The position numbers and the translations under genes were made by a program. From positions 1-64,000 of the IMG/VR virus record IMGVR_UViG_3300025012_000068: a DNA stretch of 64,000 nucleotides; one strand, written 5' to 3'. Origin of the DNA: an uncultured virus (IMG/VR IMGVR_UViG_3300025012_000068) (taxonomy: Duplodnaviria; Heunggongvirae; Uroviricota; Caudoviricetes). Shown here in pieces: positions 3,951 through 37,766 of this stretch (position 1 is the stretch's first letter; every line of letters starts with the position of its first letter). The notes below the pieces were generated by a model. It saw only the letters and a list, made by a program, of their open reading frames with translations, did not search any database and had not been told where the DNA came from.

Positions 3951-4325
3951 TTAGCCTTCTACTATTTCAGGATTATCAAAAATATTGCCAATAACTCTAT
4001 TTAATATGTCATCGTTCTCATACCAGTTAGTGTCTCCATTGCAGCTTTCTCCTGAATGAGTACAATAAAATTCAAATGAAGCGATATCGTCATTCCAACG
4101 AATAGATAAAAAGTCTTCTACAATGTCATGCTCGTAAAACTCAATACCATTTCTAATTGCAACTAATTGGCAAAGTGTATCAATTAAAATATCGCTTTCT
4201 AATCCAGTTTCTGGATTGTGTATTCTAAATTCGTTTGAGCATCCTTTAAATCTTTTAGAATGGATAAAATTACCATAAACCCACTCATTTGACATATCTT
4301 TTGCTCTGTACTTTATTGTTCTCAT
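3951..4325 (-). CDS. YopX-family phage protein
   Basis: MRTIKYRAK...WVYG start and VIGNIFDNPE end. Confidence 0.75.
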   Translation of the reverse strand: MRTIKYRAKDMSNEWVYGNFIHSKRFKGCSNEFRIHNPETGLESDILIDTLCQLVAIRNGIEFYEHDIVEDFLSIRWNDDIASFEFYCTHSGESCNGDTNWYENDDILNRVIGNIFDNPEIVEG

Positions 4326-4338
4326 TTTTTTAATTTAG

Positions 4339-4545
4339 CTATAACATTTCAACATTATCTGCAACTTCTAATATAAAAGCGTCATCACTTTTTATTACAA
4401 ATTTGTGAAGTTTATAATGGCGATCTGAGTATTTACCATTTTCAATAAATGCATAAATAAACACACGGTTATTATTTGGAAGAGACTTTTTCCATTCTAA
4501 TATTTTTTCTTTTTCCTCATTACTTAAATTTAATTCAAGCCTCAC
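4339..4545 (-). CDS. hypothetical protein
   Basis: 68-aa ORF co-oriented with neighbours. Confidence 0.4.
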   Translation of the reverse strand: MRLELNLSNEEKEKILEWKKSLPNNNRVFIYAFIENGKYSDRHYKLHKFVIKSDDAFILEVADNVEML

Positions 4546-4650
4546 GTTATTTTATTTTTATAACTTATTAATTTAGTATTAACAATATTGCAGACAATCA
4601 TATATCATAAATTCCACAATACTTTATTTTTATCTTTTATTAATTTAAAA

Positions 4651-5244
4651 TTATATTTTTTTAGTATTAAATTCAATGGCCTTATCTTTAAGTTTTTTTA
4701 TAGTATCATCAACTGCCATTTTTTTAATTGCCGATTTTAATGTTTTATTACAGTTTTTATATTCGCCAAATTTAGAAATCTCTTTTCTAAATCTAAATTT
4801 TGCCATACGAGATTGACTCCATAATATATATGGCTTTAATTTTTTTAGTTTATGTTCAGCTATCATGTTAAAAATGTCGTCATTAGTTAGCTTTAGCAAT
4901 AAATCTTTACATTTAAATATTGTTTTTATTTGGGCTTTAGATAAAGATAAATCGAAAATGTGTTTAATAGATTTAAAATAGTCGTTATGATTAAGATAAA
5001 ATTGTTCAAACACTAAATTCTTTTTTAATCTTTTTTTAGCTACCCATTTTTTATGTAAACTATATAATTTATCTTTATTTTTTTCTTTCCATTTTTTAAA
5101 ATAGTCTTTATCATATTTAGGAGATTTTTTATATTTTTCTCTTCTTCTAGCTTTTGCACATTCTTTACATATAAAAACTTTAGAGCTATAAAAATAAAAT
5201 TCAGTTTCTCCATGCTTTTTGCATTTTCTTATAATTGTTTCCAT
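4651..5244 (-). CDS. basic hypothetical protein with N-terminal Zn-finger-like motif
   Basis: CKKHG...CKEC. Confidence 0.5.
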   Translation of the reverse strand: METIIRKCKKHGETEFYFYSSKVFICKECAKARRREKYKKSPKYDKDYFKKWKEKNKDKLYSLHKKWVAKKRLKKNLVFEQFYLNHNDYFKSIKHIFDLSLSKAQIKTIFKCKDLLLKLTNDDIFNMIAEHKLKKLKPYILWSQSRMAKFRFRKEISKFGEYKNCNKTLKSAIKKMAVDDTIKKLKDKAIEFNTKKI

Positions 5245-5281
5245 GATTAAAAAGTATTTAAATTAAATAACATATACACTA

Positions 5282-6022
5282 CTAAATTGTTTTACTAATA
5301 ATATTATCTTTATTAACTACATCGATATTATTTAAACGTAATAATAATTGGCAAGATGCTATAACATCTTTTCCACAATACTTTGATATTTTATTAAGAG
5401 AATTTATTTTATTGTCTGATGAATAATATGTTTCATGGACTTCATGGCCATGAATATCATCTTTAGGGGTATCAATATTTAGTGACGCTAATACTAATTC
5501 AAATGGTATTAATTTTTTTTGGCCAAATGACCACATTTCAAATAAATCATAACATGATATTTCCCATGGCTTTTTGTTATAGTTATCTAATAAATTTGGT
5601 AAATCTAATCTATTAATTAAAAATCGTTTTGATAAAAATGGTATATCAAAATTTTTAATATTATACCCACATAATTTACCATTTTTAAAAATAGATGAAA
5701 AGTCATTTAATAATTTACTCACTTTTTCTAAAAGAATCTTTTCATTTTCATCTGCTATATTAATTAGACTAATACTACTAATATTTTCATCAAACTTAAT
5801 CATGGCAAACGACGCACATATTATTTTACCATATTCAGCATATAAGCCGGCATTTTTTAAATACCCTTCGTTTTCATCTTTATACTCTTCTTTAATTTTT
5901 TGCCAAGTTCTACGTATAAATATATCTTGTAAAAGAGGAGGTAATCCAAATAACTCCTTAGATTGACCACATGTTTCTAAATCAAAAAGTAATACTGATT
6001 TAATATTATCTTGTGTAAGCAT
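5282..6022 (-). CDS. stand-alone 3'-5' exonuclease (PolB-related DEDD family)
   Basis: FDLET, GYNIKNFDIPF and YCGKDV motifs. Confidence 0.8.
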   Translation of the reverse strand: MLTQDNIKSVLLFDLETCGQSKELFGLPPLLQDIFIRRTWQKIKEEYKDENEGYLKNAGLYAEYGKIICASFAMIKFDENISSISLINIADENEKILLEKVSKLLNDFSSIFKNGKLCGYNIKNFDIPFLSKRFLINRLDLPNLLDNYNKKPWEISCYDLFEMWSFGQKKLIPFELVLASLNIDTPKDDIHGHEVHETYYSSDNKINSLNKISKYCGKDVIASCQLLLRLNNIDVVNKDNIISKTI

Positions 6023-6090
6023 ATTTTTAATTGTTTTTAAGTTTTTTCTATTATTGGAGTTTAATTAGTATTAAAACTAATATTTTTTTT

Positions 6091-6906
6091 TTAAATTGGT
6101 AATTTAATCTTATTTAAGATATTAGTTGATATGTGAGTATAAATTTCTGTAGTTTTTATTGATGAATGCCCTGCTATTTTTTGAATTATTCGTATGTCCG
6201 TTCCATTTTCTAAAAGATTTGTAAAGCATGAATGCCTCAATGTATGAAAAGTTGAATTTTTATTAATTTTAAAATTATTCCAAATTTGCCTACAACTTGA
6301 AGTAGAATATTTAACTCCATGAGCATAGCTTTCAAAAAGATAAAACTCAGGTTTGTATTTAAGATAGTATTTTCTTAAAAGCCCTAAAATATGATTTGAA
6401 AGAGGTACAACTCTATCTTTTCTTCCTTTTCCTGATTTAACTAAAATTAGCATTCTTTTTGAATCTATGTCTTCTAATTTAAGATTACATATTTCTGAAA
6501 CTCTTAATCCACTACTATATGCTAGCGATATGATAGCTTTATGTTTTAAGTTTTGTATTTTGGAAATTGATTGCACAATTTCATCATGCGAAATTACTTG
6601 TGGTAATTTCTTTTCTCTTCGTGGTCTTTTAATTTTAATTAAATGTTTTATTGATTTTTTTAAAATTAATAAATAGAATATTTTTAAAGAATTAAGTATT
6701 TGATTTTGCTGTGATACTGACGAATAATTAAAATTAAATAAATAGTTGTTTAACTGTTCTAAATTTAAATGGTATGGATCATTGTTTATTTCTATTAAAA
6801 AGTTATAAAGACAACTTTTATAATTATTAATAGTACATGTTGAATAATTTTTTATTATCAGAGTTTTTTCAAATTTTCTGATAATACAATCAAATTTAGT
6901 ATTCAT
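6091..6906 (-). CDS. tyrosine recombinase/integrase of the cassette array (likely start MNTKF at 6906)
   Basis: SGLRVSE, KSGKGRKDR, HTLRH, GHSS, TEIYTH catalytic set; SAM-like N-terminal domain. Confidence 0.9.
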   Translation of the reverse strand: MNTKFDCIIRKFEKTLIIKNYSTCTINNYKSCLYNFLIEINNDPYHLNLEQLNNYLFNFNYSSVSQQNQILNSLKIFYLLILKKSIKHLIKIKRPRREKKLPQVISHDEIVQSISKIQNLKHKAIISLAYSSGLRVSEICNLKLEDIDSKRMLILVKSGKGRKDRVVPLSNHILGLLRKYYLKYKPEFYLFESYAHGVKYSTSSCRQIWNNFKINKNSTFHTLRHSCFTNLLENGTDIRIIQKIAGHSSIKTTEIYTHISTNILNKIKLPI

Positions 6907-6909
6907 ATT

Positions 6910-6949
6910 CAATATATTAAGCGTACTTGTATATATATAATAGTTAGCG
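6910..6949 (+). other. attI-like primary recombination site (core GTTAGCG at 6943, no hairpin)
   Basis: ATATATATAATA-GTTAGCGGTAATG immediately upstream of the integrase start; first cassette body starts here and ends in the complementary CACTACCGCTAAC (to 7150). Confidence 0.6.
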
Positions 6950-6955
6950 GTAATG

Positions 6956-7210
6956 TTAAGACCACTCGAAACCTGACCATCCTTTATTCCACTTTGACAG
7001 CTTGAAAGAAAATGAAAATCCGCAATGGTTGTCTTCAAGTGCTTTTGTTGCTAAAAATGCGTGTGTATCTACTATCTCACATTGTTTATTTTCTTTCAAT
7101 GCTTGCAGTAATTCGTGTCCATTCTTCGGACGAAAAACACTACCGCTAACACTCGATATAAGTAATGGCGGGTTAGTGCTTTCTTGATGTTCTGTGCTTT
7201 CTATTGTCAT
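6956..7210 (-). CDS. cassette ORF (MTIEST...; start inside hairpin loop)
   Basis: ATG at 7210 within site 7144-7273; reads through GTT AGC GGT AGT (VSGS). Confidence 0.65.
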   Translation of the reverse strand: MTIESTEHQESTNPPLLISSVSGSVFRPKNGHELLQALKENKQCEIVDTHAFLATKALEDNHCGFSFSFKLSKWNKGWSGFEWS

Positions 7211-7273
7211 TTGTGCTAAATTTAAAGTGAGTAGTTCTAAATCCGCCACTACTCATAGCGGATGCCGTTATAT
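7144..7273 (+). repeat. attC-like hairpin site
   Basis: CGCTAAC..TATAAGTAATGGCGG / CCGCCACTACTCATA..GTTATAT. Confidence 0.85.
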
Positions 7274-7489
7274 GCAATGTTTTCTTTCCTCGCTCAACTC
7301 ACTATTACATTTATCACATATTCGTTCTCTAACATCATAAGTTAGATTTTCTTCATTCTCTTGAATTGTGAGTTCCGACCCACAAACACAACACATAACA
7401 TCAGATAAACTCAATTTTTTATCGAGCAATCCAACTTTATTTAAGTGCTGATTTAACCAATTGTTTTCGTAATATATTTTCTTTTCCAT
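7268..7489 (-). CDS. cassette ORF, small Zn-ribbon protein
   Basis: CxxC...CxxC; stop TAA lies in the TAAC core; start in hairpin. Confidence 0.65.
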   Translation of the reverse strand: MEKKIYYENNWLNQHLNKVGLLDKKLSLSDVMCCVCGSELTIQENEENLTYDVRERICDKCNSELSEERKHCI

Positions 7490-7522
7490 AATAAAAACTG
7501 AGTTTATCTGTAGCCGTTATAT
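7393..7522 (+). repeat. attC-like hairpin site
   Basis: ACATAAC-AT-CAGATAAACTCAATTTTTTAT / ATAAAAACTGAGTTTATCTG-TAGCC-GTTATAT. Confidence 0.85.
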
Positions 7523-7678
7523 TTAATACAAAAATAAGAAATATTTTTGATATATTAACACGTTTAGTACTTTATTTTTGAACTAAATATAATAAGTAAA
7601 TATAATTAATTGATAATCAATCTACTAAATTATAAATGACAGTACTCTTCAACTAATCATATTTACAGAACGTTAGCA
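7516..7678 (-). promoter_or_regulatory. ORF-less putative promoter cassette, copy 1 (complete, with own hairpin 7587-7678)
   Basis: Repeat found 5 times; minus-strand TATTTTTG (TAnnTTTG) at 7529-7536; arms GTAAATATAATTAATTGA / TCAACTAATCATATTTAC-AGAAC-GTT. Confidence 0.7.
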
Positions 7679-7687
7679 AACATAAAA

Positions 7688-7906
7688 TTATTTAGATAAG
7701 TCGTTATCATCAAATAACAATTTCAACTTCTCTGCTAACTTTTCCATAAATTCTTCTTTACCATCAATCCAACTTTCAAGTCCTAATACAGTTTCAGCAC
7801 AAGAAGTTGAAATTTCTTCGCTGAATGTTTCTTCTACTAATTTTAAAATATCTTTCTTAGTCATAATTTTACGATTTGCTAACAGCGTATATGTGAAATA
7901 CGCCAT
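7688..7906 (-). CDS. cassette ORF, hypothetical (start 7906 or 7864)
   Basis: Body bounded by GTTAGCAAA (7672) and TTTGCTAAC (7883). Confidence 0.6.
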   Translation of the reverse strand: MAYFTYTLLANRKIMTKKDILKLVEETFSEEISTSCAETVLGLESWIDGKEEFMEKLAEKLKLLFDDNDLSK

Positions 7907-7970
7907 TAAGGTTTGTATTTAATTTCAAGTTTCTGCTATGCGTACTTCACATATACGCAAAACGTTAGGC
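7877..7970 (+). repeat. attC-like hairpin site
   Basis: TGCTAAC-A-GCGTATATGTGAAATACGC / GCGTACTTCACATATACGC-AAAAC-GTTAGGC. Confidence 0.85.
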
Positions 7971-7976
7971 GTAAGG

Positions 7977-8321
7977 CTACTGCCACACACCATTGACGCG
8001 AACAACCTGTGAACGCTCAATCCAAATAGATTGCTCTGTATCTTCATCCTTAAATTCTTCCTTCCAATGAATACGCCCAATTAATCGCTTTTCGGTTTTC
8101 TTTGGTCGCCTTGAAATTGTTATTTCTTCTTCCGTTTCCTCAAATCTTTGGTGGTCATCACACAATAGAAGTTCCTCTTTTTTCAAGGCAACTATTTCTG
8201 TTTTGATTTGAGCGATTAATTCCCATTTTTCGGCAATCTCCTGATTGATGTCCGCCCTACGCCTAACAGTACCTTGAACGCTATTGGCGGTTTCGTTGTT
8301 AATTGAAGTTTTCGTTTCCAT
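7977..8321 (-). CDS. cassette ORF, hypothetical
   Basis: Body bounded by GTTAGGCGTAAGG / CCCTACGCCTAAC; start in loop. Confidence 0.65.
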   Translation of the reverse strand: METKTSINNETANSVQGTVRRRADINQEIAEKWELIAQIKTEIVALKKEELLLCDDHQRFEETEEEITISRRPKKTEKRLIGRIHWKEEFKDEDTEQSIWIERSQVVRVNGVWQ

Positions 8322-8392
8322 ATTTACTTTTGTTGTTTAATTAAAATTCGTGTTTCAAATCGCCAACAGCGTCAAGCTGCGGCACGTTATAA
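8261..8392 (+). repeat. attC-like hairpin site
   Basis: GCCTAAC..CTTGAACGCTATTGGCG / CGCCAACAGCGTCAAG..GTTATAA. Confidence 0.8.
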
Positions 8393-8401
8393 GTAATAAA
8401 A

Positions 8402-8659
8402 CTACTCATTTCTTTCTATTAATTCTTTTATATTTTCAATAACATAATAAAAGTTTTCACAAGTATCTTTTAAATCATCCCAATCTGTTCTACCCTCTAC
8501 AAAATCCTCTCTATTATTGAAAATATAAAAATACCCTCTATCATCTAAACTTTTTATCAATTTTAGAATTTCTTCCTTAGTTTTACTACTTATAACATCA
8601 GATATATTCAATTCTGATGTCTTATCTTCAAATGTTTTTATATGTTTTCTATCTTTCAT
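8402..8659 (-). CDS. cassette ORF, hypothetical
   Basis: Body bounded by GTTATAAGTAATAAAA / TTTTACTACTTATAAC; start in loop. Confidence 0.65.
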   Translation of the reverse strand: MKDRKHIKTFEDKTSELNISDVISSKTKEEILKLIKSLDDRGYFYIFNNREDFVEGRTDWDDLKDTCENFYYVIENIKELIERNE

Positions 8660-8722
8660 CTTATTAATTTATTTTAGTTATATATTAAAATCAGAACTGA
8701 ATATATCTGATGAACGTTAGCA
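8590..8722 (+). repeat. attC-like hairpin site
   Basis: TTATAAC-ATCAGATATATTCAATTCTGAT / ATCAGAACTGAATATATCTGAT-GAAC-GTTAGCA. Confidence 0.85.
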
Positions 8723-8731
8723 GCAATAAGC

Positions 8732-8902
8732 CTATATCCGTTTAATAACATCACACATCTTTGAAAATTTATCTGCATCTATAATCACCTTCTTCTTTTT
8801 TGAGGTCGGCTTACTGCTTATAACAACATGTTTATTCAATTGCTGGCTTTCGTAGTCTGCAATTAACTTTTTCGCTTTTAAGTATTGTTTTTCTGTTATC
8901 AT
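8732..8902 (-). CDS. cassette ORF, 56 aa (MITEKQYLKAKKLIADYESQQLNKHVVISS...), below ORF-track cutoff
   Basis: Translated by hand; N-terminus paralogous to 21133..21375. Confidence 0.6.
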   Translation of the reverse strand: MITEKQYLKAKKLIADYESQQLNKHVVISSKPTSKKKKVIIDADKFSKMCDVIKRI

Positions 8903-8952
8903 AATTTTTCGTTTTTAAAGTCGCAACTAAATAAACCTGCAAACTGTTATAT
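8818..8952 (+). repeat. attC-like hairpin site
   Basis: TTATAAC-A-ACATGTTTATTCAATTGC / GCAACTAAATAAACCTGC-AAACT-GTTATAT. Confidence 0.8.
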
Positions 8953-9060
8953 TTAATACAAAAATAAGAAATGTTTTTGATATATTAACATTTTTAGTAC
9001 TTTATTTTTGAACTAAATATAACAAGTAAATATAATTAATTGATAATCAATCTACTAAAT
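8946..9060 (-). promoter_or_regulatory. putative promoter cassette, copy 2 (right hairpin arm lost)
   Basis: Near-identical to 7516-7630; intact ATATAAC at 9017-9023. Confidence 0.7.
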
Positions 9061-9115
9061 GATAAATATAATACTCTTTGTGTATTATATATGGGTGAGG
9101 CTAAACTGAATAGTT

Positions 9116-9343
9116 TTATTGTGTTGCTTTACTAAATAAGTTTAGGTCTTTACTTTTCACTAATTCATTACACTCGCATTGACCCATTTGGAGTCCATTT
9201 CCACCATGTATCATTTCCACTTTATCGCCTCGCCTAACATATTGTTTTAGGTTTTTAAGCCAGTCAGTATCAGTGTAGCAGTGAGGTTCATGGCATGCTG
9301 CAAATATTTTATCACAACATGCATATTTAATAACTTGTATCAT
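9116..9343 (-). CDS. small Cys-rich hypothetical protein
   Basis: 75-aa ORF coupled to the upstream gene. Confidence 0.55.
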   Translation of the reverse strand: MIQVIKYACCDKIFAACHEPHCYTDTDWLKNLKQYVRRGDKVEMIHGGNGLQMGQCECNELVKSKDLNLFSKATQ

Positions 9344-9741
9344 GTTAGTTTTATTATTTTTTCTAATTTATATATATTGTCATTATATGAGAAGCATATA
9401 TAAACTGTTGAATTATTTACATTTGAACTTTTAATTTTTTCAAGGTCATTTTGTATTTGGTCATTTAAACAATTAAGATTTTTAATTCTTTTTACTTTTA
9501 CTTCTATTATATTGCCCCTATCTGTTAGTAAATCTGTATAAATGTCATTTGTAAATTTATAATTGAAATTTTCATATAACCATACTTCAGCCGTTTTACC
9601 TAATTTGACATTATTGGATATTATGTCATAACTTCTATGCCTTCTTGCAATACTAGAATTAAATATCCTATCAGCCTCTTCTTTTATTAATTTAGATAGT
9701 AAGGCTTTATCTTTAATATCTTCATATTTAAAACAAATCAT
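9340..9741 (-). CDS. putative PD-(D/E)XK nuclease-like protein
   Basis: GKTAE...TDL...IEVK pattern. Confidence 0.45.
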   Translation of the reverse strand: MICFKYEDIKDKALLSKLIKEEADRIFNSSIARRHRSYDIISNNVKLGKTAEVWLYENFNYKFTNDIYTDLLTDRGNIIEVKVKRIKNLNCLNDQIQNDLEKIKSSNVNNSTVYICFSYNDNIYKLEKIIKLT

Positions 9742-11431
9742 TAAAATACATTACATTTTTTTCTATTAATGGCATATCCATAGCTTCTAGAGCCCTATTC
9801 AATGGATTTAAAATAATAACATTAAATTGCTCATCATAATCTACGTGAGGCGCAAACTCAATTGGAAATTTTCCAGGTAAATAACTAAATGCATCTATCT
9901 TATACGTATCATCAGGCATACAATTATAAAATCTAACCTTATCTCCGGTTCTTACCTTTTTATATTTTTTGCGTATATTATCAGTTTGCTTATATAATAA
10001 ATGGTTATAATAACCAGCGGACCTTGGATAGATAGATGCGCCTTTTGCAAATACTAATTGATCGTCATCTTTAATGACATATTTTTTAAATGTTCGTAGA
10101 TTAAAATTCATACTAAACTCATCAGGGTGTAGCCCTTTAAATTCTTCTTTATATTCTAATAATTTATTTAATATCTCATCCATATTTAAAGAGTCGCCAT
10201 TCTTTAAAATAATCTTAATTAATTCTGTACCTTTAGCCCGTGCCCATTTTGGTAAAGACGCTTTTACTAAATCAAACCCCTTAGGTAATAAATACGACTC
10301 AGGTAATAGTCTATCCTCAAATGCAACATCTAATATATAATTTTTTTTTGCAATAAAAATACCACTATTACTAATATGCTCTAATTTAAAATCATGGGTG
10401 TTTATTGCATTATACGACTTAGCGTATTCTTCAAATTTATTATTTAAATAAGAATTCATCCTATATTTAATTATATCAGCTGCAAATAATATAGGACTTA
10501 TTTTTAATGTATCAAACCCCTCTATCGACTTTATAATATAATCATAATTAATATAACCAGAATTGTGAACTAAAATATCATTAGCAATAAACGTATGAGT
10601 TGCATCATCCATTTCAATATCATATACCCACTCATCTTCGAATTCACCTATACATTTACATTCAGATATATCTTCAAATTGATAATTAAAATTTAAGTCT
10701 AATTCGTTAATTGTTAAAATTTTATCAATTTTTGTATTAATTTCAGATGGCTTAATTTTTAATTGTATTCCATCGTGAAATACAATTAGTGAATGATCTT
10801 CTGTGCATATTATTGATTTTCCAGACTTAGACCTCAATAACCATTTTTTCTTTTTTACTTTATGCCTAATCAGTTTTTTAGGTTTTGCATAATATAAGGT
10901 ATTATTAAAATTTAATATTCTAAAATTAGAAATACCAATTATCTCATTCCCATTTTTTAATTTAATAATACTATTAATTTTATAACATAATTTAAAAAAA
11001 TCTTTAATTTTAATTTTTCCTATATTTTTTACATAAATTATTGAATTTTCGTTGACGCTATCCGTGTCAACATATATTATAGGTGGCCCTTTTGTTATTT
11101 TTATAGGATTAATTTTTAAATGATCTATACTTAATTTTTTATGAAGCTCTTTATCAAGATGCCACTCATTAATAAAATAATGTTCTATTACCTTATCCGT
11201 ATACTTAATAATATCTTGACCTTGCAAAGTTATTGACGCCGCTATGTCTAAATTGAAAAATGCGAAGGAATTTTGACCTGATGAACCATAATAGCTATTT
11301 AATATAATCTTAAATGCACTATCTTGCAGTTTGAGTTTATTAATTAATGCTTTAAGTTCGTCTTTAGTTAAAGTATTAATATAATCTTGTCTAGTATTAT
11401 GATCTTTAAGTAAGTTTAAATCTATTGCCAT
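9728..11431 (-). CDS. gp43: family-B DNA polymerase, C-terminal half (motifs B and C, thumb), intein-containing
   Basis: KIILNSYYG (motif B), YVDTD|S (motif C), KKNY; no exonuclease domain or motif A. Confidence 0.9.
   Translation of the reverse strand: MAIDLNLLKDHNTRQDYINTLTKDELKALINKLKLQDSAFKIILNSYYGSSGQNSFAFFNLDIAASITLQGQDIIKYTDKVIEHYFINEWHLDKELHKKLSIDHLKINPIKITKGPPIIYVDTDSVNENSIIYVKNIGKIKIKDFFKLCYKINSIIKLKNGNEIIGISNFRILNFNNTLYYAKPKKLIRHKVKKKKWLLRSKSGKSIICTEDHSLIVFHDGIQLKIKPSEINTKIDKILTINELDLNFNYQFEDISECKCIGEFEDEWVYDIEMDDATHTFIANDILVHNSGYINYDYIIKSIEGFDTLKISPILFAADIIKYRMNSYLNNKFEEYAKSYNAINTHDFKLEHISNSGIFIAKKNYILDVAFEDRLLPESYLLPKGFDLVKASLPKWARAKGTELIKIILKNGDSLNMDEILNKLLEYKEEFKGLHPDEFSMNFNLRTFKKYVIKDDDQLVFAKGASIYPRSAGYYNHLLYKQTDNIRKKYKKVRTGDKVRFYNCMPDDTYKIDAFSYLPGKFPIEFAPHVDYDEQFNVIILNPLNRALEAMDMPLIEKNVMYFNDLF
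10562..11059 (-). mobile_element. mini-intein (166 aa) in polymerase motif C
   Basis: Starts SVNENS after DTD; block B CTEDHS; ends VYDIEM...FIANDILVHN before Ser. Confidence 0.85.
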
Positions 11432-11496
11432 ATGACTTAAATTTTTGGTATTAGGTATCTAAAATAAAATAGGTTTACTATATTATAAAAGATAAT

Positions 11497-11964
11497 TTAC
11501 AAAAAGATAGTGTATAGTTTTATTAATAGGCCAATTAAGAATACTATGTATAATACCCATATTATATTTGTTTCATTCCATTTATATTTTATTTTTATTA
11601 TAAATGCGTAATGGTCTTTAGTACATATTTTTTCCGTTTTCATTTTAATTAGGTCTAGTATTCCGTATTCTAAAAAAACGTCATTATATTTTTTAAATTC
11701 ATGTTTAAGGTATTCTACCTCTAATCTATTTAATTCTTCTTTATTTTCTTCTTCTATAAGAAATTCAGGAGGTAAATTAATAACAGAGTATAGCCTATTA
11801 ATATAGTCTTTTCTAAGTTCTAGGGTATCCCCTATTATTTTATTATTTTTCATCTGTTTTAATGCAGATATATATTTTAAGTAAATATTTACTTCTAAAA
11901 CAATATTATAAAATTTGTTAATTATAAAGTTAGGATTTATAAAATTAGGTATAGAAAGTCTCAT
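11497..11964 (-). CDS. hypothetical protein with C-terminal transmembrane segment
   Basis: 155-aa ORF. Confidence 0.55.
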   Translation of the reverse strand: MRLSIPNFINPNFIINKFYNIVLEVNIYLKYISALKQMKNNKIIGDTLELRKDYINRLYSVINLPPEFLIEEENKEELNRLEVEYLKHEFKKYNDVFLEYGILDLIKMKTEKICTKDHYAFIIKIKYKWNETNIIWVLYIVFLIGLLIKLYTIFL

Positions 11965-11972
11965 AATTTATT

Positions 11973-12578
11973 TTATTTTAAAATTTCATTTGCTAGTTCT
12001 ACTATATGTTTTTTCTCTGATAATTTAGCTAAAACCTGTATTCGTGATTGACGAATTAAGGTTTTAATAGTATCAATATTTATATTATATTTAACCGATA
12101 TATCCTTATATTTCATTCTATTTATTTCCCTGTCAATAAGAACTTCCTTTTTTCTACCATTTAATTTAAGTATTTCTGAAACTACTGTATTATATAAAGT
12201 TTCGAAGTCTTTTTCTGAATTAAAGATTTCAAAGCTATTAAACTCTTTTTTAGAGCCGGTATCATGAAAAATAGTTAATGTGACTGTATTTTTTTTATAA
12301 TTTATAAATTGTAAGGCGTCATACCTAGCTATACTATATATCCATGTACTAAATCTCCAATTTTCATTATACATATCAATTTTTTGCCAAAGCTTAATCA
12401 TAACTTCTGATGAAATATCATTAGAGTCGTCATAGTCTTTCACTATTTTATATATATATAACTGAACTTGCGGTAATATTAAGTTATATAGTTTATTATA
12501 AACTAATTTAGATTTTGTTCTTTTAAATTCAATAGATAATTCTTGTATTAATTCATTTTTTTTTACAGGTAGTTTCAT
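11973..12578 (-). CDS. ECF-type RNA polymerase sigma factor
   Basis: Region 2 (KLWQKIDMY...FSTWIYSIARY) and region 4 (MKYKDIS...NIDTIKTLIRQSR). Confidence 0.85.
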   Translation of the reverse strand: MKLPVKKNELIQELSIEFKRTKSKLVYNKLYNLILPQVQLYIYKIVKDYDDSNDISSEVMIKLWQKIDMYNENWRFSTWIYSIARYDALQFINYKKNTVTLTIFHDTGSKKEFNSFEIFNSEKDFETLYNTVVSEILKLNGRKKEVLIDREINRMKYKDISVKYNINIDTIKTLIRQSRIQVLAKLSEKKHIVELANEILK

Positions 12579-12594
12579 ATAATGGTTTTTAAGA

Positions 12595-13373
12595 TTAAAT
12601 TAAATTTGTAGTGTTTAGCATTCCATCTAAATGTAATAATGATATTTTATTTTTTAATAACGTCTCACTTAAGTTTTTACTATTAATATATTTAAAAAAG
12701 TCGCAGTCTAAGGCTCTTCCAGTTTCTTGTAAATATTCAAGACTAGGTTGTGATTTAATAATAAACTCATAAGATTCTTTATCTAATTTATATCCTCTAT
12801 TCAAAAACTTAATTATTCTTTCAAAGTATATAAATCTATTATTTTTAATTTTTGCTAATTTAATTATTTTTTGTTGTAAATCATTAATTGAATTATCAAA
12901 GTAATATATATCATTTCCATCAAACCCAAACTGGCATATGGTAAAATCAAAATCATAAATACAAGACTCTATAGTGGGATAGTTTTGGCCTATCATTACT
13001 TGAATATGATTATCGTTATTGATAAAATCTAATTTATACACTCTTGGATCATTACGTAAATTAAGTAGAGGTTTATGGTTTTTAGTAGAGACTTCATCTT
13101 TAATATATTTAATAAGATTTCTTTCTTTTTTATTTTTAGAATGTTCTAAAGAAATCTCATAAGTATCTAGCAAATTATTGTTTATTATAAAGCGTATAGA
13201 GTCTTCTCTATTTTTTGAAAAAATATCTATATCATTATATTTAGTATTATCTAAAATATCTCTAATACACCCTCCTGCTATCCAATTATTTTCGTATTTA
13301 AATTTAGGTATTAAATTATGTATTAAATTACCATCTTTTTTTGCAGACAGTTAGTCTCAATATCAGTATCCAT
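12595..13373 (-). CDS. PolyA-polymerase/CCA-type nucleotidyltransferase-like protein; apparent 1-nt frameshift near the start
   Basis: In-frame upstream extension WIAGGCIRDIL...DIDIF and downstream FDFTICQ; ATG 13373 is out of frame across the T7 run at 13336-13342. Confidence 0.65.
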
Positions 13374-13419
13374 TAAAAAACGATTTAGTAAATAGTTTTT
13401 GTAAAAGTATAAAAATAAA

Positions 13420-14010
13420 TTAAATAAAAATATATTTTATTCCATTAATATTAAAATAACACTCTAAGTCTTCAGGTAAGTACTCGGTGCTATTTATCAG
13501 TTCTTTACCAATTTTTATAGATTTTTGATTTTTTCTCCATAGAAAAATACCATCTCTTTTTTTAGTAAACCCATATATAAATTTAGTTTGTTTATTTGAT
13601 TCTACTATAGATTTAATCATTCTTAAAAAATTAATATCTGACATTTCTTTAGGTTTCAATATAAAAATATTTTGTTCAAATTTAAGTTTTTGTCTATCTC
13701 CTATATTATCTTCAGCTCGCGTTACTCCTTCTTGTACTGCAAATTTAAAATTAAGTTTTAATAAATTTATAGAAAGTTCTTCTATTAATAATTTGTTATC
13801 AATTTCTTTATTTTTATTATTCCAAACTGTTATAATTGTAAACGGTATTTTTTCTTCTATTGCATTTTTAATTTCATAAAAACCAATAGGAGATAATGTG
13901 TTATTATTTCCATTAACTGCAGAACTAAATTTTTTGTCTTTACTATAAACTCGAGGTAGTGGAACATTTATAATATTATGGTAAGCTTCAAATAATTTAA
14001 CATATTCCAT
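13420..14010 (-). CDS. hypothetical protein (late-type, YVKLFE N-terminus)
   Basis: 196-aa ORF preceded by GAATAAATAA. Confidence 0.55.
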   Translation of the reverse strand: MEYVKLFEAYHNIINVPLPRVYSKDKKFSSAVNGNNNTLSPIGFYEIKNAIEEKIPFTIITVWNNKNKEIDNKLLIEELSINLLKLNFKFAVQEGVTRAEDNIGDRQKLKFEQNIFILKPKEMSDINFLRMIKSIVESNKQTKFIYGFTKKRDGIFLWRKNQKSIKIGKELINSTEYLPEDLECYFNINGIKYIFI

Positions 14011-14049
14011 GTTATTATTTATTCAATTTTTAAATTAATAGAATTTTAA

Positions 14050-14367
14050 TTATTCTAATTTATCAAGTTCTTCTTTCAATCTTTCAAGAAAAGACTCTTC
14101 TCCATCATCTCCAGATAATAACCAATCAATTCGGTGAGCGTATATTGCAGCAGTTCTTAGTATTTTTATAGCATCTTTCATTTTTTCTTGAATTTCAATA
14201 GGATAAGCTGCATAATATTTTTCATCAGGATATTTACTATAATACTCATCGGTATAATATAGCTCATCCTTTGGTTTTAAAGTACCCTGTTTATTAAGTT
14301 CATTTTCAATAGAATCTGCAATATTACTAACATGATATTGCTGGTAATCAAAGTGTCCGCCTGACAT
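14050..14367 (-). CDS. conserved phage hypothetical protein
   Basis: MSGGHFDY...RIDWLLSGDDGEESF. Confidence 0.6.
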   Translation of the reverse strand: MSGGHFDYQQYHVSNIADSIENELNKQGTLKPKDELYYTDEYYSKYPDEKYYAAYPIEIQEKMKDAIKILRTAAIYAHRIDWLLSGDDGEESFLERLKEELDKLE

Positions 14368-14405
14368 ATTTTAAAAAATTAGAATTTATAATAGTTTATT
14401 TAGAA

Positions 14406-14612
14406 TTATTGTTCTTGATTTAGTATTTTAGTTATTTTAGAATTAATATCCGACATTTTTTCAAAATATAGGCTTTCCTGTTTTTTAAGACTTATTTTTT
14501 CATTAGGGTCATCTGATAATAATCCCTTTATTTTAAATTCATTACTTTTAGCTCTATATTCATCTTGAGTAGAATATAAGTTTTTTATGTGTTCTAAGGT
14601 TTCAGTAGTCAT
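14406..14612 (-). CDS. hypothetical protein
   Basis: 68-aa co-oriented ORF. Confidence 0.45.
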   Translation of the reverse strand: MTTETLEHIKNLYSTQDEYRAKSNEFKIKGLLSDDPNEKISLKKQESLYFEKMSDINSKITKILNQEQ

Positions 14613-14623
14613 AATATATTTAT

Positions 14624-14860
14624 TTATAATGGATGGTAGTTTGTAATTTTGAATTTAATAAAATCTAGTTTTTTATCTGTACAGTTTTCGCAAAGGTGAG
14701 CGTTCCATTCTTTCAAATCTTTAGAACTTCCAAATCCCCAATTTGCACTTAATTTTAGATATTCAAATCCATACTCCGTATTACACATTTTACCACATGA
14801 GTCACACACTATATCTTTAAGTACGTCTACTTCTTTTAATTCTTTAGTTATTACTTTCAT
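14624..14860 (-). CDS. small Zn-binding hypothetical protein
   Basis: CDSC...WGFGS...LCENC. Confidence 0.55.
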   Translation of the reverse strand: MKVITKELKEVDVLKDIVCDSCGKMCNTEYGFEYLKLSANWGFGSSKDLKEWNAHLCENCTDKKLDFIKFKITNYHPL

Positions 14861-15494
14861 TATTAGTATGTATTTTTAATATTTCATTAATATTAAGCTT
14901 AGGTATACCTAATACTTTACTATTTTCACTTAAATTATATAAATTTACATTTTTTATTTTGAAAGCATTATATAAATTTATATAATCATTATTAATTTCA
15001 TTCAGTCTATTTGCTTTAATTAAATTATGTTCACCATCTTCTGCATAAAAATGATTTAATGTAAAATCTACTCCAATTAATGCGATTGTATGACACCCCA
15101 TTTTATATGCAATAATACATGCCATATATGGAGAGTTATTACTATAATCTATAATATTATTTTTATCATAAAGATTTTCTAATTTAGATTTTAATCCAAG
15201 TTTAAATAATACTTTTTTTCCAGATTCAATTTTCCAATCAACGATTTGTGTAAAAATATAGCTACTACTTTTTGTAATAAGCAAGTTTCTATTGTTAGTA
15301 AATCTATTAGGAGAATCTACAACCACCGTATAAGTAGGAGTAAATAATTTAGCAACATCATTTACTCCTATTGTAATTATATTCTCATTATTTAGTATAT
15401 CTACTCGGTCTTTAATAAGATTTAAAGACTGACCACACCCACAGATTATTGCAGTTTTATCAGTGTGTATATTAATAAATTTATTAAATTCCAT
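14844..15494 (-). CDS. DUF115/Maf-like putative glycosyltransferase-related protein
   Basis: IICGCGQSL, IGVN and LIGVDF motifs. Confidence 0.6.
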   Translation of the reverse strand: MEFNKFINIHTDKTAIICGCGQSLNLIKDRVDILNNENIITIGVNDVAKLFTPTYTVVVDSPNRFTNNRNLLITKSSSYIFTQIVDWKIESGKKVLFKLGLKSKLENLYDKNNIIDYSNNSPYMACIIAYKMGCHTIALIGVDFTLNHFYAEDGEHNLIKANRLNEINNDYINLYNAFKIKNVNLYNLSENSKVLGIPKLNINEILKIHTNNESNN

Positions 15495-15560
15495 ATACTA
15501 GACTCTATTATAACTAATTATTTTTAATGTATCAAAATAGTTTTTTACATTACGTTAAAT

Positions 15561-15632
15561 ATATAAGTTTTTGTTTACAAATCTTTATAATTTTTTCGTT
15601 CATACTATTGATTTTATTATAGTTTAAACATA
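15561..15632. repeat. about 70-bp repeat (second copy at 33191-33261), possible 5' remnant of an integrase gene
   Basis: Near-identical copies; minus strand encodes MNEKIIKICKQ; both abut the left end of an array. Confidence 0.6.
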
Positions 15633-15670
15633 CATGTATATATATATATATATAATATTTATGTGTAATA

Positions 15671-15967
15671 CTACTCATGTTCTCCGAAATATTCCTTTTC
15701 ATCAAAGTTTTCATCGTTATCAAAATCATAAACACACTTAAATTTTAAAACTCTACCTCTCCAAGATTGTTCTACCACTAATGTGATTTCACTAGTCGTT
15801 TGAGAATTAAAGTCAGTTAATTCCATCATTCCGTTTTCACGTTTATATTTCTCATATTCAACGTCATTACTACCACTTTTCCAAACATATTCATCAAACT
15901 TTTCTGATGAAATGTCTGGTAATTTATATTCATTTCCACTTTCTAATTTAATTTTTATTGTATCCAT
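15671..15967 (-). CDS. cassette ORF, hypothetical
   Basis: Body bounded by TTATGTGTAATAC / GTACTACACATAAC. Confidence 0.6.
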   Translation of the reverse strand: MDTIKIKLESGNEYKLPDISSEKFDEYVWKSGSNDVEYEKYKRENGMMELTDFNSQTTSEITLVVEQSWRGRVLKFKCVYDFDNDENFDEKEYFGEHE

Positions 15968-16000
15968 AAGTTTTAAAATTTAAGTTTAACACCGTACTAC

Positions 16001-16130: not shown

Positions 16131-16165
16131 TTAATTGTTCGCTTCTCACAACTATACTTCGTTAA

Positions 16166-17472: not shown

Positions 17473-17541
17473 ATTTACTTTTGTTTTAAATTGATAATTT
17501 GTACTTCTAATTTCGGCATTTCTTTTATGCCCATGTTATAT
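17413..17541 (+). repeat. attC-like hairpin site (AAT instead of AAC)
   Basis: GGCATAAAAGAAATGCCGA / TCGGCATTTCTTTTATGCC perfect 19-bp stem, then GTTATAT. Confidence 0.8.
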
Positions 17542-17680
17542 TTAATACAAAAATAAGAAATATTTTTGATATATTAAATTTTTTAGGTACTTTATTTTTG
17601 AACTAAATATATCAATTAAATATAATTAATTGATAATTAATATACTAAACGATAAACGGTCATAATCTTCAACTAATTAC
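17535..17680 (-). promoter_or_regulatory. putative promoter cassette, copy 3
   Basis: Similar to 7516-7660, including partial right arm CTTCAACTAAT. Confidence 0.65.
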
Positions 17681-17908
17681 GCGTACAACTTCTGAATCAT
17701 TATTTTTACCGGAGAAAACAAAATTACAATACTCTTTAAAAGTAAGAATGTTGTTTTTTCTTAATCTGGTTTGCAAACGTACCTGTAACATGCTTTTTTA
17801 GATACAGTATATTTATACCATAATGTGAACGTATAAACTCACTAAGTTTTACAAAGTCAGCATCACTTAATTCTTTGCTAGGTGTATCAATTTTCAGAAT
17901 AACCCCTA
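17675..17908 (-). pseudogene. frameshifted fragment resembling the CheR methyltransferase N-terminal domain
   Basis: ELSDADFVKLSEFIRSHYGIN / SMLQVRLQTRLRKNNILTFKEYCNFVFS...EVVR in two frames. Confidence 0.65.
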
Positions 17909-17911
17909 GTT

Positions 17912-18742: not shown

Positions 18743-18743
18743 T

Positions 18744-34430: not shown

Positions 34431-34529
34431 ACCTAACATCAGGTAGGCGATATTGCCGTTATGAGCCTGAGTGCTTTGATTTAAACTTTGTGGTAAGCCT
34501 CACTATCGCCTACCTGCAAAACGTTATAT
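34431..34529 (+). repeat. attC-like hairpin site
   Basis: ACCTAAC-AT-CAGGTAGGCGATATTG / CACTATCGCCTACCTG-CAAAAC-GTTATAT. Confidence 0.85.
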
Positions 34530-34637
34530 TCAATACAAAAATAAGAAATAGTTTTGATATATTAAAATATTTAGTACTTTATTTTTGAACTAAATATAAC
34601 AAGTAAATATAATTAATTGATAATCAATCTACTAAAT
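34523..34637 (-). promoter_or_regulatory. putative promoter cassette, copy 4
   Basis: Near-identical to 8946-9060. Confidence 0.7.
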
Positions 34638-34651
34638 AATAAATGATTACG

Positions 34652-37519: not shown

Positions 37520-37615
37520 TTATAACAATTACTTTATACAAGTTTGTCATCAACTCTACTGCTAAATGTTAAGTGTCCGTATGGCAAACTGGGCATAAAG
37601 TACCGGCCGTTATAT
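37520..37615 (+). repeat. attC-like hairpin site
   Basis: TTATAAC-AAT-TACTTTATACAAGTTTGTCAT / ATGGCAAACTGGGCATAAAGTA-CCGGCC-GTTATAT. Confidence 0.8.
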
Positions 37616-37657
37616 TTAATACAAAAATAAGAAATAGTTTTAATATATTAAAATATT
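37609..37657 (-). promoter_or_regulatory. putative promoter cassette, copy 5 (truncated)
   Basis: GTTATATTTAATACAAAAATAAGAAATAGTTTTAATATATTAAAATATT. Confidence 0.65.
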
Positions 37658-37766
37658 TTCCCAAATTAAATATAATAGTATACTATAAATGATTGGCATT
37701 TAATACATTATATTATTTAATTATACACATTATTTCTAAAAACGCTAAAATTTTATAAAACATTGT

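What the first reader, a model, noticed from the sequence alone, without database searches (positions are those of the whole stretch)
7516..7678. A mobile ORF-less promoter cassette, five copies, capping the arrays
Seen: an element of about 115-160 bp at 7516, 8946, 17535, 34523 and 37609, always beginning exactly at the GTT core of the preceding hairpin. It has cassette anatomy: complementary ends (GTTATATTTAATACAAAAATAAG / CTTTATTTTTGAACTAAATATAAC) and, in copy 1, a full hairpin ending at GTT 7672. It has no ORF but carries TATTTTTG on the minus strand. Established: TAnnTTTG is the Bacteroidota housekeeping -7 element. Inference: the promoter is itself a shufflable cassette, so expression is set by where it inserts, replacing the fixed Pc of classical integrons. 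Caveats: there is no clear -33 TTTG, and the motif also occurs on the plus strand.
Basis: partly seen in the sequence, partly recalled or inferred. Interest (0 to 1): 0.88.

Follow-up and report, generated by a model that had tools for sequence, protein, structure and literature searches.

The report
Promoter-like cassette in a jumbo phage
A short gene-less repeat lying just upstream of small genes in a giant bacterial virus looks like a portable promoter, built like the gene cassettes of an integron-like system that this virus and many related viruses carry.

Summary
The repeat is real. There are five copies in the window at the stated places and 17 in a near-identical 246-kb phage genome, G001. 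The window is a jumbo phage with a T4-type portal, not a bacterial chromosome.

All 17 copies share a 42-45-nt core. It sits in non-coding DNA and carries TAnnTTTG in 15 of 17 copies. An ORF reads away from its GTTAT end within 11-163 nt in 15 of 17.

Ten copies start at GTTA next to a TAAC...GTTA hairpin; seven have neither. Three long copies run from GTTA to GTTA, have their own hairpin, and fit the cassette end-pairing chain.

The cassette logic is independently supported:
- A 237-nt gene module has three 99% identical copies whose identity stops at GTTA.
- In relatives, own-end complementarity averages 4.48 of 7 against 2.4 for controls.
- 172 hairpins lie upstream of a Xer-like recombinase and 1 downstream.

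The recombinase lacks the integron-integrase insertion. Promoter activity is inferred only, because no RNA data were available. Promoter cassettes are known in bacterial integrons and PeSLs in T4-like phages, so this is a new variant in a seemingly undescribed phage setting.

The parts
7516..7675 (-). Element copy 1, long form. It runs GTTA to GTTA (156 nt plus cores) and is gene-less. It sits inside array 1, two cassettes upstream of the recombinase.
   Evidence: It is 99.4% identical to G001 159791-159952, with unrelated flanks beyond each GTTA.
7516..7560 (-). Conserved core of about 45 nt, read on the minus strand. It is the putative promoter, with a -7-type box TATTTTTG at 7536-7529. Conservation ends at the cassette boundary.
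   Evidence: Present in 17 of 17 copies, with TAnnTTTG in 15 of 17. All 19 PWM hits lie in non-coding DNA.
7590..7675 (+). Copy 1's own attC-like hairpin: TAAT (TAAC in the sister copies), AA, arm 7596-7612, 37-nt loop, arm 7650-7666, AGAAC, GTTA 7672-7675.
   Evidence: The sister copies were detected as 86-nt hairpins with arms pairing 16 of 18.
7396..7519 (+). 124-nt TAAC...GTTA hairpin abutting copy 1. Its loop holds the start codon (7489) of the 73-aa gene 7268-7489 (minus strand).
   Evidence: (I22).
8946..9075 (-). Element copy 2, truncated form. Its own distal arm and GTTA are replaced by other sequence. It caps the promoter-side end of array 1.
8716..8949 (-). Small-gene cassette of about 55 aa with its hairpin at 8821-8949, lying directly downstream of copy 2. 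G001 holds three 99% identical copies, at a different position in each array.
17535..17690 (-). Element copy 3. Its own hairpin is decayed (distal arm 12 of 17, no GTTA). It caps a recombinase-less cluster of hairpin genes at about 15,970-17,540.
   Evidence: hairpin I13.
34523..34650 (-). Element copy 4, truncated form, upstream of hairpin 34434-34526 and of the gene 34157-34384 (minus strand).
37609..37658 (-). Element copy 5, core only (about 50 nt). It lies in a divergent gap, upstream of an imperfect hairpin at about 37522-37612 and of the gene 37037-37450 (minus strand).
   Evidence: (D3).
6091..6906 (-). Xer-like tyrosine recombinase, 271 aa counted from the ATG at 6906. It is the last gene downstream of array 1. 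The final cassette boundary (TAAC on the minus strand) lies at 6943-6946.
   Evidence: G001 holds two further copies or remnants, each behind its own array. End-pairing of the last cassette is shown.
6947..9075 (-). Array 1 as a whole, in order: capping copy 2, four ORF cassettes, element copy 1, two ORF cassettes, then the recombinase. All genes lie on the minus strand.

Best explanation
The element is an upstream regulatory module of a jumbo phage that probably infects Bacteroidota. It is most likely a promoter read on the minus strand.

Its invariant core of 42-45 nt contains ATATATCAAA, about 5 variable nt, and then TTTCTTATTTTTGTATTAAATA. This ends exactly where gene-specific sequence begins, so transcription would start within the last few bases. 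It would then run through the adjoining 5' hairpin into the small genes downstream, and in three arrays on to a Xer-like recombinase gene.

In its complete 156-nt form the module is itself a gene-less cassette of the phage's integron-like system. It starts and ends at the GTTA core and carries its own attC-like hairpin. Its two ends pair with each other, as the ends of ORF-bearing cassettes do. Most other copies are truncated cassettes fixed at the far end of arrays, or bare cores in front of ordinary genes.

Shown: repetition, placement, orientation, boundaries and cassette anatomy.
Inferred: promoter activity, the start site, and movement by the recombinase.
For: Repeat family: there are 5 copies in the window and 17 in G001, which matches window 1-58555 at 99.98%.

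Placement and orientation:
- An ATG-ORF of 40 aa or more starts 11-163 nt beyond the GTTAT end and reads away from it in 15 of 17 copies. One more starts at 340 nt, and one copy has none within 400 nt.
- Only 4 of 17 copies have an outward ORF start within 170 nt of the other end.
- The part kept by all 17 copies, including the four shortened ones, is the 42-45 nt next to the downstream gene. TAnnTTTG is present in 15 of 17.
- A weight matrix of that core hits 19 places in 246 kb (17 copies and 2 weak). All 19 are non-coding, although 87% of the genome is ORF. Both weak hits lie 41-42 nt before a co-oriented ORF.

Host:
- Shine-Dalgarno-like words occur before only 11 of 300 ORFs.
- By my count of record titles, about 65 of 80 bacterial relatives of the recombinase are labelled Bacteroidota.
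- The portal is nearest to huge uncultured phages and to Prevotella Lak phages.
- The introduction of PMC7366714 (passage read) gives TAnnTTTG as the -7 consensus. [quoted passage not shown]

Cassette status:
- The three long copies (G001 76731, 159950, 235014) share sequence from GTTA to GTTA and diverge immediately outside.
- In arrays 2 and 3 their own hairpins have the standard geometry of TAAC, 5 nt, arm, loop, arm, 2 nt, GTTA.
- The 7 nt after the element's inner GTTA (TATTTAG) pair with its last 7 nt (TTAAATA) at 6 of 7 in arrays 1 and 2 and 5 of 7 in array 3. The 7 nt before the element pair with the preceding cassette's own start at 5-6 of 7 in arrays 1-3.

The system is real:
- G001 has 9 strict hairpins against 0 in 5 shuffles.
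- A 237-nt gene module has three 99% identical copies whose identity stops at GTTA on both sides.
- In recombinase-linked loci (80 fetched; 78 used here), own-end complementarity averages 4.48 of 7 (n=91), against 2.46 for the adjacent end (n=156) and 2.37 for random pairs.
- Across the 80 loci, 172 hairpins lie in 341 kb upstream of the recombinase and 1 in 430 kb downstream. All 173 have the same polarity, and 53 of 80 loci have at least one.
- G001 has three arrays, each followed by a recombinase gene or a remnant of one.
Against: - No expression data exist: no RNA run holds the stretch.
- The minus-strand core has no TTTG about 19-21 nt upstream of the box.
- TAnnTTTG is not enriched upstream of this phage's genes in general: 21 sense against 24 antisense in 16 kb of gaps. 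The two weak core matches lack the final G. The conserved core may therefore be a binding site for something other than the host sigma factor.
- The plus strand of the element also carries promoter-like words. These are TTGAAC, 17 nt, TATAAT (10 of 12) and TTTG, 23 nt, TATTTTTG.
- 7 of 17 copies have no GTT core and no hairpin, and only 3 (plus one variant without GTTA) keep their own hairpin. Copy 1's first core reads TAAT.
- No population variant shows the element present in one genome and absent in another. The lineage has no close relative in the collections searched, and the contig laying was uninformative.
- In relatives, TAnnTTTG does not abut the hairpin. It lies inside cassettes after the hairpin, so a promoter cassette is not a general feature of the system.
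- The recombinase lacks the integron-integrase insertion.
Confidence: 0.55

Rival explanations
1. The element is a fixed phage promoter/regulatory repeat of the PeSL kind. It is the phage's standard promoter of one temporal class. It spreads and stays uniform by homologous recombination and gene conversion, not by site-specific movement. GTTA at its edge belongs to neighbouring cassettes that happened to insert beside it.
For: - 7 of 17 copies lie outside any hairpin context, and homology ends at about the same base even there.
- Copies are 83-100% alike and could recombine with one another.
- PeSLs in T4-type phages are repeated promoter-plus-stem-loop motifs upstream of ORFans in plastic regions (PMC2839356, abstract and section 13; PMC4122927, abstract).
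Against: - The three long copies have exact GTTA-to-GTTA limits with unrelated flanks, their own hairpin of standard geometry, and own-end pairing that fits the cassette chain. Homologous exchange does not predict these.
- No G+C-rich terminator-type stem-loop was found in 6800-9300 (0 found).
Confidence: 0.2
2. The element is the attI-like landing site of the system, possibly together with a promoter. The recombinase inserts incoming cassettes at its terminal core, which is why hairpin cassettes abut it.
For: - 10 of 17 copies are directly followed by a hairpin cassette.
- Truncated copies sit at the promoter-side end of all three recombinase-linked arrays. New cassettes inserted there would be expressed at once.
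- The core holds a long conserved sequence that could bind protein.
Against: - The 7 copies without a cassette lack the TAAC/GTTA core that an empty site should keep.
- The conserved sequence lies on the side of the core where a cassette start lies, not where the conserved part of a classical attI lies (recalled from integron literature, not tested here).
- The final boundary of array 1 lies 37 nt before the recombinase gene (6943-6946) without any element there.
Confidence: 0.1
3. The element is regulatory but not a minus-strand promoter. It could be an operator or insulator, a plus-strand (antisense) promoter, or a small structured RNA acting on neighbouring genes.
For: - The plus strand has TTGAAC, 17 nt, TATAAT and TTTG, 23 nt, TATTTTTG.
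- A perfect palindrome, ATTGATAATCAAT, lies in the extension kept by 13 of 17 copies.
- The 22-23-nt inverted repeat could fold.
- Two copies sit in divergent gaps with a plus-side gene 43-47 nt away.
Against: - The plus-strand motifs are lost in the four shortened copies, while the minus-strand core is kept in all 17.
- Sigma-70-type matches are not enriched: 14 found against 13.9 expected.
- No Rfam family matches.
Confidence: 0.1
4. The element is a miniature inverted-repeat transposable element (MITE) moved by a transposase encoded elsewhere.
For: It is short, gene-less and multi-copy, with a 22-23-nt inverted repeat.
Against: - The inverted repeat is not terminal: the conserved unit runs 45-75 nt beyond one arm.
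- No target-site duplication is visible in the printed flanks.
- All copies lie in one orientation relative to genes and none lies inside an ORF.
- The limits coincide with cassette cores.
Confidence: 0.02

Closest known systems
Promoter-bearing gene-less (ORF-less) cassettes of bacterial integrons: Vibrio superintegrons (PMC11014356) and Treponema-type oral integrons (PMC6557892). Abstracts read.
   Same: Both are cassettes without an ORF, bounded by the recombination core and carrying their own hairpin site. Their proposed job is to drive neighbouring cassettes, and some also act on the other strand.
   Different: - Here the carrier is a jumbo phage and the recombinase is Xer-like without the IntI insertion.
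- The cassette genes lie on the strand opposite to the classical one, with their start codons inside the hairpins, so the promoter fires out of the cassette end that abuts the next hairpin.
- The same core also occurs outside cassettes (7 of 17 copies).
- Activity is untested here, whereas those papers measured it.
PeSLs, the promoter-early stem-loop 'mobile regulatory cassettes' of T4-type phages (PMC2839356, abstract and section 13; PMC4122927, abstract).
   Same: Both are repeated short regulatory motifs upstream of small ORFans in plastic regions of phages with T4-type genes. Both are proposed to carry a promoter and to mediate shuffling, and small circles were reported for PeSLs.
   Different: - PeSLs are sigma-70-type promoters with G+C-rich terminator stems that exchange by homologous recombination between copies.
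- Here no terminator-type stem was found and the motif is Bacteroidota-like.
- The limits are exact 4-nt cores with attC-like hairpins and own-end pairing, next to a tyrosine recombinase.
Integron platform promoter Pc with attI
   Same: The truncated copies at the far end of each array sit where a fixed array promoter would be needed.
   Different: They lie at the end of the array distal to the recombinase gene, and transcription runs towards that gene. Classical Pc lies beside or inside intI and reads away from it (recalled, not tested here).
Integrons and clusters of attC sites reported in phage genomes (PMC9892861; abstract, section 3.4 and passages read).
   Same: attC-type hairpins and cassettes occur inside phage genomes, including virulent phages and one phage of a Bacteroidota host.
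   Different: - That survey found 3 complete integrons, 1 integrase-only element and 17 attC clusters, giving 21 phages in all.
- It did not report a Xer-like recombinase family with arrays in many large phage contigs, gene starts inside hairpins, or promoter cassettes (not in the parts I read).
- Its supplementary tables were not examined.

Membership tests
Integron gene cassette (gene-less, promoter type) | Bounded at both ends by the recombination core (G|TTRRRY-type) | tested here: met
   Met for the 3 long copies, which run GTTA to GTTA with unrelated flanks. Not met for the other 14: 7 have the core at one end only, and 7 have it at neither end.
Integron gene cassette (gene-less, promoter type) | Own attC-type imperfect hairpin at the cassette end, with inner and outer repeats and an unpaired spacer | tested here: met
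   The long form has TAAC, AA, a 17-nt arm, a 37-nt loop, a 17-nt arm (15 of 17 paired by eye), AGAAC and GTTA. The two sister copies were detected at 86 nt with arms pairing 16 of 18. Window copy 1 reads TAAT for TAAC. This was not scored with the attC models of IntegronFinder or HattCI, which are not on hand.
Integron gene cassette (gene-less, promoter type) | The start of the cassette is complementary to the flank of its own hairpin (the signature of a circular intermediate) | tested here: met
   For the element, TATTTAG pairs with its last 7 nt at 6 of 7 in arrays 1 and 2 and 5 of 7 in array 3, extending to 22-23 nt. For the system, the own end scores 4.48 of 7 against 2.46 for the adjacent end and 2.37 for random pairs.
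Integron (platform) | Integrase of the IntI clade with the additional domain between patches II and III | tested here: not met
   The best solved relatives are archaeal XerA (129 and 123 bits). Against Vibrio IntI4 (2a3v) the match splits: query residues 180-203 stand opposite chain residues 180-249, so about 46 residues are missing. The score of 169.8 bits against TIGR02249 is below its cut-off of 265.
Integron (platform) | Recombinase-dependent excision and insertion of cassettes | not testable with these tools
   Only indirect evidence exists: a three-copy module and three long-form copies with exact core limits at different array positions.
Bacteroidota primary-sigma promoter | TAnnTTTG at about -7 | tested here: met
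   Present on the minus strand in 15 of 17 copies. Two copies end the box in A. The consensus is taken from a passage of PMC7366714.
Bacteroidota primary-sigma promoter | TTTG at about -33 | tested here: not met
   There is no TTTG in the 25 nt upstream of the minus-strand box. An invariant ATATATCAAA stands there instead. [quoted passage not shown]
Bacteroidota primary-sigma promoter | A mapped transcription start downstream of the box | not testable with these tools
   No RNA holder was listed.
PeSL (T4-type phages) | Promoter joined to a stable G+C-rich stem-loop that terminates transcription | tested here: not met
   No terminator-like sites were found in 6800-9300. The element's inverted repeat is A+T-rich and has no T-run after it.
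PeSL (T4-type phages) | A repeated motif just upstream of small ORFans in plastic regions | tested here: met
   Of 22 neighbouring ORFs scanned, 21 have no Pfam family above its cut-off, and one is ClpS-like.
MITE | Terminal inverted repeats at the true ends, plus a target-site duplication | tested here: not met
   The repeat is internal to the unit, and no duplication is visible in the 17 printed flanks.

The most novel reading that the evidence does not exclude
Jumbo phages of Bacteroidota carry their own integron-like gene-capture system. It is run by a short Xer-type tyrosine recombinase that lacks the IntI domain. Its cassettes hold small genes on the 'wrong' strand, with their start codons inside the attC-like hairpins. 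Because such cassettes cannot use a platform promoter, this phage has packaged a promoter as a cassette, placed once inside each of its three arrays and, in truncated form, at each array's head. Expression of captured genes, and of the recombinase itself, would then depend on where this cassette sits.
Probability: 0.45. Interest if true: 0.88.

Novelty: new variant of a known kind. Interest (0 to 1): 0.72.

Why it matters
If the reading holds, a virulent-type giant phage shuffles its regulatory signals as well as its small accessory genes, using site-specific cassette recombination.

That would extend the integron principle in three ways:
- to phages;
- to a recombinase outside the IntI clade;
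- to an inverted gene layout in which promoter cassettes are needed rather than optional.

The recombinase family with upstream hairpin arrays occurs in at least 53 of 80 fetched phage loci, and 219 contigs encode a relative. The phenomenon may therefore be common in environmental jumbo phages, and it could explain how their many small ORFan genes turn over.

It also supplies defined parts that can be tested directly: a 45-nt core, a 156-nt cassette and a 271-aa recombinase.

Tried and rejected
Searches that found nothing:
- RNA evidence: no RNA holder was listed for 6900-9400.
- Laying contigs of four DNA runs (X1, X3, X5, X6) on 4000-23000 gave only short-sided joints at repeats, plus low-depth identical pieces. 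No usable presence/absence variant emerged.
- Rfam found no family at E up to 1, and no tRNA or tmRNA was found.
- The element has no match in the GenBank phage collection.
- Exact-word scans found it only in G001, in one 31-kb record and in one 3.3-kb contig.
- The flanking PolB fragment has no close relative that would allow a locus comparison.

Ideas tested and dropped:
- TAnnTTTG as a general promoter word of this phage: not enriched upstream of genes. 7-mer enrichment in upstream gaps gave A-rich leader words, TAAATAA/ATAAATA, and hairpin-core words such as TGTTATA, GTTATAT and TTGTTAT.
- A promoter abutting the hairpin as a general design in relatives: not seen.
- Sigma-70-type promoters: not enriched.
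- Window as a classical bacterial integron: rejected. The genes are those of a phage, including a T4-type portal, PhoH, a split PolB with an intein, sigma factors and nucleotide metabolism.
- Hairpins as purely RNA-level features: this does not explain own-end complementarity or the exact module limits. An additional RNA role is not excluded.

Other:
- Literature: searches found no paper on integron-like arrays in jumbo phages.
- One malformed search term was corrected.

Full report
**What the window is.** The 64-kb window is 24.8% G+C. It encodes a T4-type portal, PhoH, a helicase, a 5'-3' exonuclease, two sigma-like factors, a family-B DNA polymerase split into two distant genes, and nucleotide-metabolism enzymes. 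Its portal is nearest (30-40% identity) to huge uncultured phages and to Prevotella Lak phages. The record is a 73.9-kb virus fragment. A 246-kb record, G001 (92% complete by the tool's table), matches window 1-58555 at 99.98%. I used G001 as the whole genome. The "arrays" of the finding therefore lie in a jumbo phage, not in a bacterial integron.

**The observation.** The left-end 23-mer occurs at 7516, 8946, 17535, 37609 and, with one mismatch, at 34523. Chance expectation is 0.02. Four copies are about 122-160 nt long; the one at 37609 keeps only about 50 nt. All five begin at a GTTA that closes a TAAC...GTTA hairpin just to the left. The complementary ends are a 22-23-nt inverted repeat. 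Copy 1 carries its own hairpin ending in GTTA at 7672-7675. No ORF of 20 aa or more overlaps it. TATTTTTG is on the minus strand at 7536-7529 and twice on the plus strand.

**The family in the whole genome.** G001 has 17 copies on both strands.
- Aligned in the direction of the flanking genes, all 17 share the 42-45 nt nearest the downstream gene: ATATATCAAA, about five variable bases, then TTTCTTATTTTTGTATTAAATA. TAnnTTTG is present in 15 of 17.
- Thirteen copies also keep an 80-nt upstream extension, which holds the second arm of the inverted repeat and a perfect palindrome, ATTGATAATCAAT.
- An ATG-ORF of at least 40 aa starts 11-163 nt beyond the GTTAT end and reads away from it in 15 of 17 copies. 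At the other end an outward ORF start lies within 170 nt in 4 of 17.
- A weight matrix of the core finds 19 sites in 246 kb, all non-coding, although 87% of the genome is ORF. The two weak extra sites lie 41-42 nt before co-oriented ORFs.
- This placement and strand bias is what a promoter, or another 5' control element of minus-strand genes, would show.

**Which host, which promoter.**
- Only 11 of 300 ORFs have a Shine-Dalgarno-like word.
- By my count of record titles, about 65 of the 80 best bacterial relatives of the neighbouring recombinase are labelled Bacteroidota.
- One phage sigma factor scores best against a Bacteroidetes-type model, below its cut-off.

So the minus-strand box is a fair -7 candidate, with the boundary a few bases downstream as the likely start.

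Against this reading:
- There is no -33 TTTG.
- TAnnTTTG is not enriched before this phage's genes in general (21 sense, 24 antisense).
- The two weak core sites lack the final G.
- The plus strand also has promoter-like words.

No RNA run holds the stretch, so promoter activity is an inference.

**The cassette context.** The hairpins are not noise: G001 has 9 strict sites and five shuffles have none. Read on the gene strand, each is TAAC, about 5 nt, a 17-24-nt arm, a loop, the other arm, about 2 nt, then GTTA. Lengths cluster near 88 and 124 nt. The long ones hold the start codon and about 20 codons in the loop.

Three results show that these sites bound mobile units:
1. A 237-nt module (window 8715-8951, a gene of about 55 aa with its hairpin) has three 99% identical copies in G001. 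Identity stops exactly at GTTA on both sides, with unrelated flanks.
2. Relatives of the adjacent tyrosine recombinase (50-57% identity) are encoded in 219 viral contigs. In the 80 fetched loci, 172 hairpins lie in 341 kb upstream of the gene and 1 in 430 kb downstream. All 173 have the same polarity, and 53 of 80 loci have at least one.
3. The 7 nt after the GTTA of a hairpin are complementary to the 7 nt before the next TAAC, which is the unit's own far end. The mean is 4.48 of 7 (n=91). It is 2.46 for the adjacent end (n=156) and 2.37 for random pairs. This is the signature expected if units circularise at the core, as integron cassettes do.

G001 has three such arrays, each followed on the same strand by a recombinase gene: one full copy, one copy at 50% identity, and one 49-aa remnant.

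**The recombinase.** With the likely start at 6906 it is 271 aa. It is closest to archaeal XerA structures. Against Vibrio IntI4 it lacks about 46 residues where the integron-specific insertion lies, and it scores below the cut-offs of the XerA and IntI models. The system works like an integron but fails a defining feature of the family. The layout also differs: all cassette genes lie on the strand that reads towards the recombinase, antisense to the classical orientation.

**Is the element a cassette?** The long form is.
- Copies at G001 76731 (window copy 1), 159950 and 235014 share sequence from GTTA to GTTA and diverge at once outside.
- In the sister copies of arrays 2 and 3 the own hairpin has the standard geometry (86 nt, arms 16 of 18).
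- The element's inner flank TATTTAG pairs with its last 7 nt (6 of 7 in arrays 1 and 2, 5 of 7 in array 3). The 7 nt before it pair with the preceding cassette's own start (5-6 of 7 in all three arrays).
- In array 2 the chain is unbroken over four successive boundaries at 6-7 of 7, with the element as one link.

On the gene strand the 156-nt unit is therefore hairpin, then a 70-nt body holding the conserved core, then the boundary. The putative promoter points out of the cassette into the next one.

Each of the three arrays has the same plan: a truncated copy at the far end, cassettes, the long form, one or two cassettes, then the recombinase. The 55-aa module sits at a different place in each.

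The remaining copies are not cassettes. Seven abut a hairpin but lack their own distal arm or core. Seven have neither GTT nor a hairpin and stand before ordinary genes.

**Verdict on the interpretation.** The "mobile ORF-less cassette" part is supported for the long form and for the system as a whole. The "promoter" part is well supported by position but untested. "Always follows a hairpin GTT" holds in the window (5 of 5) but not in the genome (10 of 17). "Replacing the fixed Pc" overstates the case, because truncated and apparently fixed copies head the arrays. I could not show movement directly. The lineage has no close relative in the collections, and the contigs laid were uninformative. 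In related phages, TAnnTTTG lies inside cassettes after short hairpins rather than at the end of a separate cassette. The promoter cassette thus seems particular to this lineage.

**Comparison with what is known.**
- Gene-less cassettes with measured promoter activity are described in Vibrio superintegrons and in oral Treponema-type integrons (PMC11014356 and PMC6557892, abstracts).
- T4-type phages have PeSLs, repeated promoter-plus-terminator motifs that shuffle ORFans by homologous recombination and form mini-circles (PMC2839356, abstract and section 13; PMC4122927, abstract).
- Integrons and attC clusters have been reported in 21 phages (PMC9892861; abstract, section 3.4 and passages).
- Three full-text searches found nothing on recombinase-linked hairpin cassette arrays in jumbo phages.

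I therefore rate the element a new variant of a known kind, set in a system that itself appears undescribed.

Noticed in passing
window 44621-46057 (+) and 9728-11431 (-): The family-B DNA polymerase is split into two genes about 33 kb apart on opposite strands. The C-terminal piece also matches an intein splicing domain, below Pfam's cut-off.
   Followed up: no
G001 77209-78153, 233723-234583, 161142-161291: G001 holds three copies or remnants of the Xer-like recombinase. Each lies just downstream of its own hairpin array and on the same strand.
   Followed up: partly
L112 2205-2353; L126 4101-4312: Some cassettes in related phages hold no ORF but carry several tRNA T-arm-like words (GGTTCGATTCC-type), inside or after the hairpin. 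They may be tRNA-derived cargo.
   Followed up: no
L097, L098, L112, L124 (cassettes with 48-nt hairpins): A class of very short hairpins (48-49 nt, 12-nt arms, a shared loop word) is followed within 30 nt by TTTG...TAnnTTTG-like words and then a start codon. These cassettes seem to bring their own promoter.
   Followed up: partly
relatives, e.g. L081 4289-4361, L067, L136, L070, L104: Several conserved 70-90-nt blocks recur between the stop codon and the cassette end in different phages. Their function is unknown, and no TAnnTTTG is visible in the examples I read.
   Followed up: no
window 7268-7489, 8402-8659, 8736-8903 and G001 paralogues: The GTTA core inside cassette genes is usually read in frame as Val followed by Ile, Met or Ser, after a leader of about 20 aa (for example ...SDVISS...HVVISS...YFVSKR). 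The recombination core therefore constrains, or doubles as, a protein motif.
   Followed up: no
window 58055-58555 and many G001 sites (89-95 kb, 130-152 kb, 164-168 kb, 187 kb, 209 kb): A large family of repeat-containing paralogous genes is present. The window and G001 join differently at one member: window 58109-64000 maps to G001 209689-203798. This is an assembly or rearrangement difference.
   Followed up: no
L167, L171, L211, L218, L221, L224 (bacterial contigs): Among 80 bacterial relatives of the recombinase (41-50% identity, mostly labelled Bacteroidota), only 6 show strict hairpins. There the hairpins lie downstream of the gene with the opposite polarity, which is a different platform layout.
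   Followed up: partly
window 15569-15632 and 33198-33261: A separate 64-nt repeat (97% identical) lies in two regions and is unrelated to the element (D10).
   Followed up: no
window 17206-17472 (-): The first cassette gene behind copy 3 encodes an 88-aa protein with a signal-peptide-like start and a Cys-rich lipobox-like stretch, so it may be a lipoprotein.
   Followed up: no
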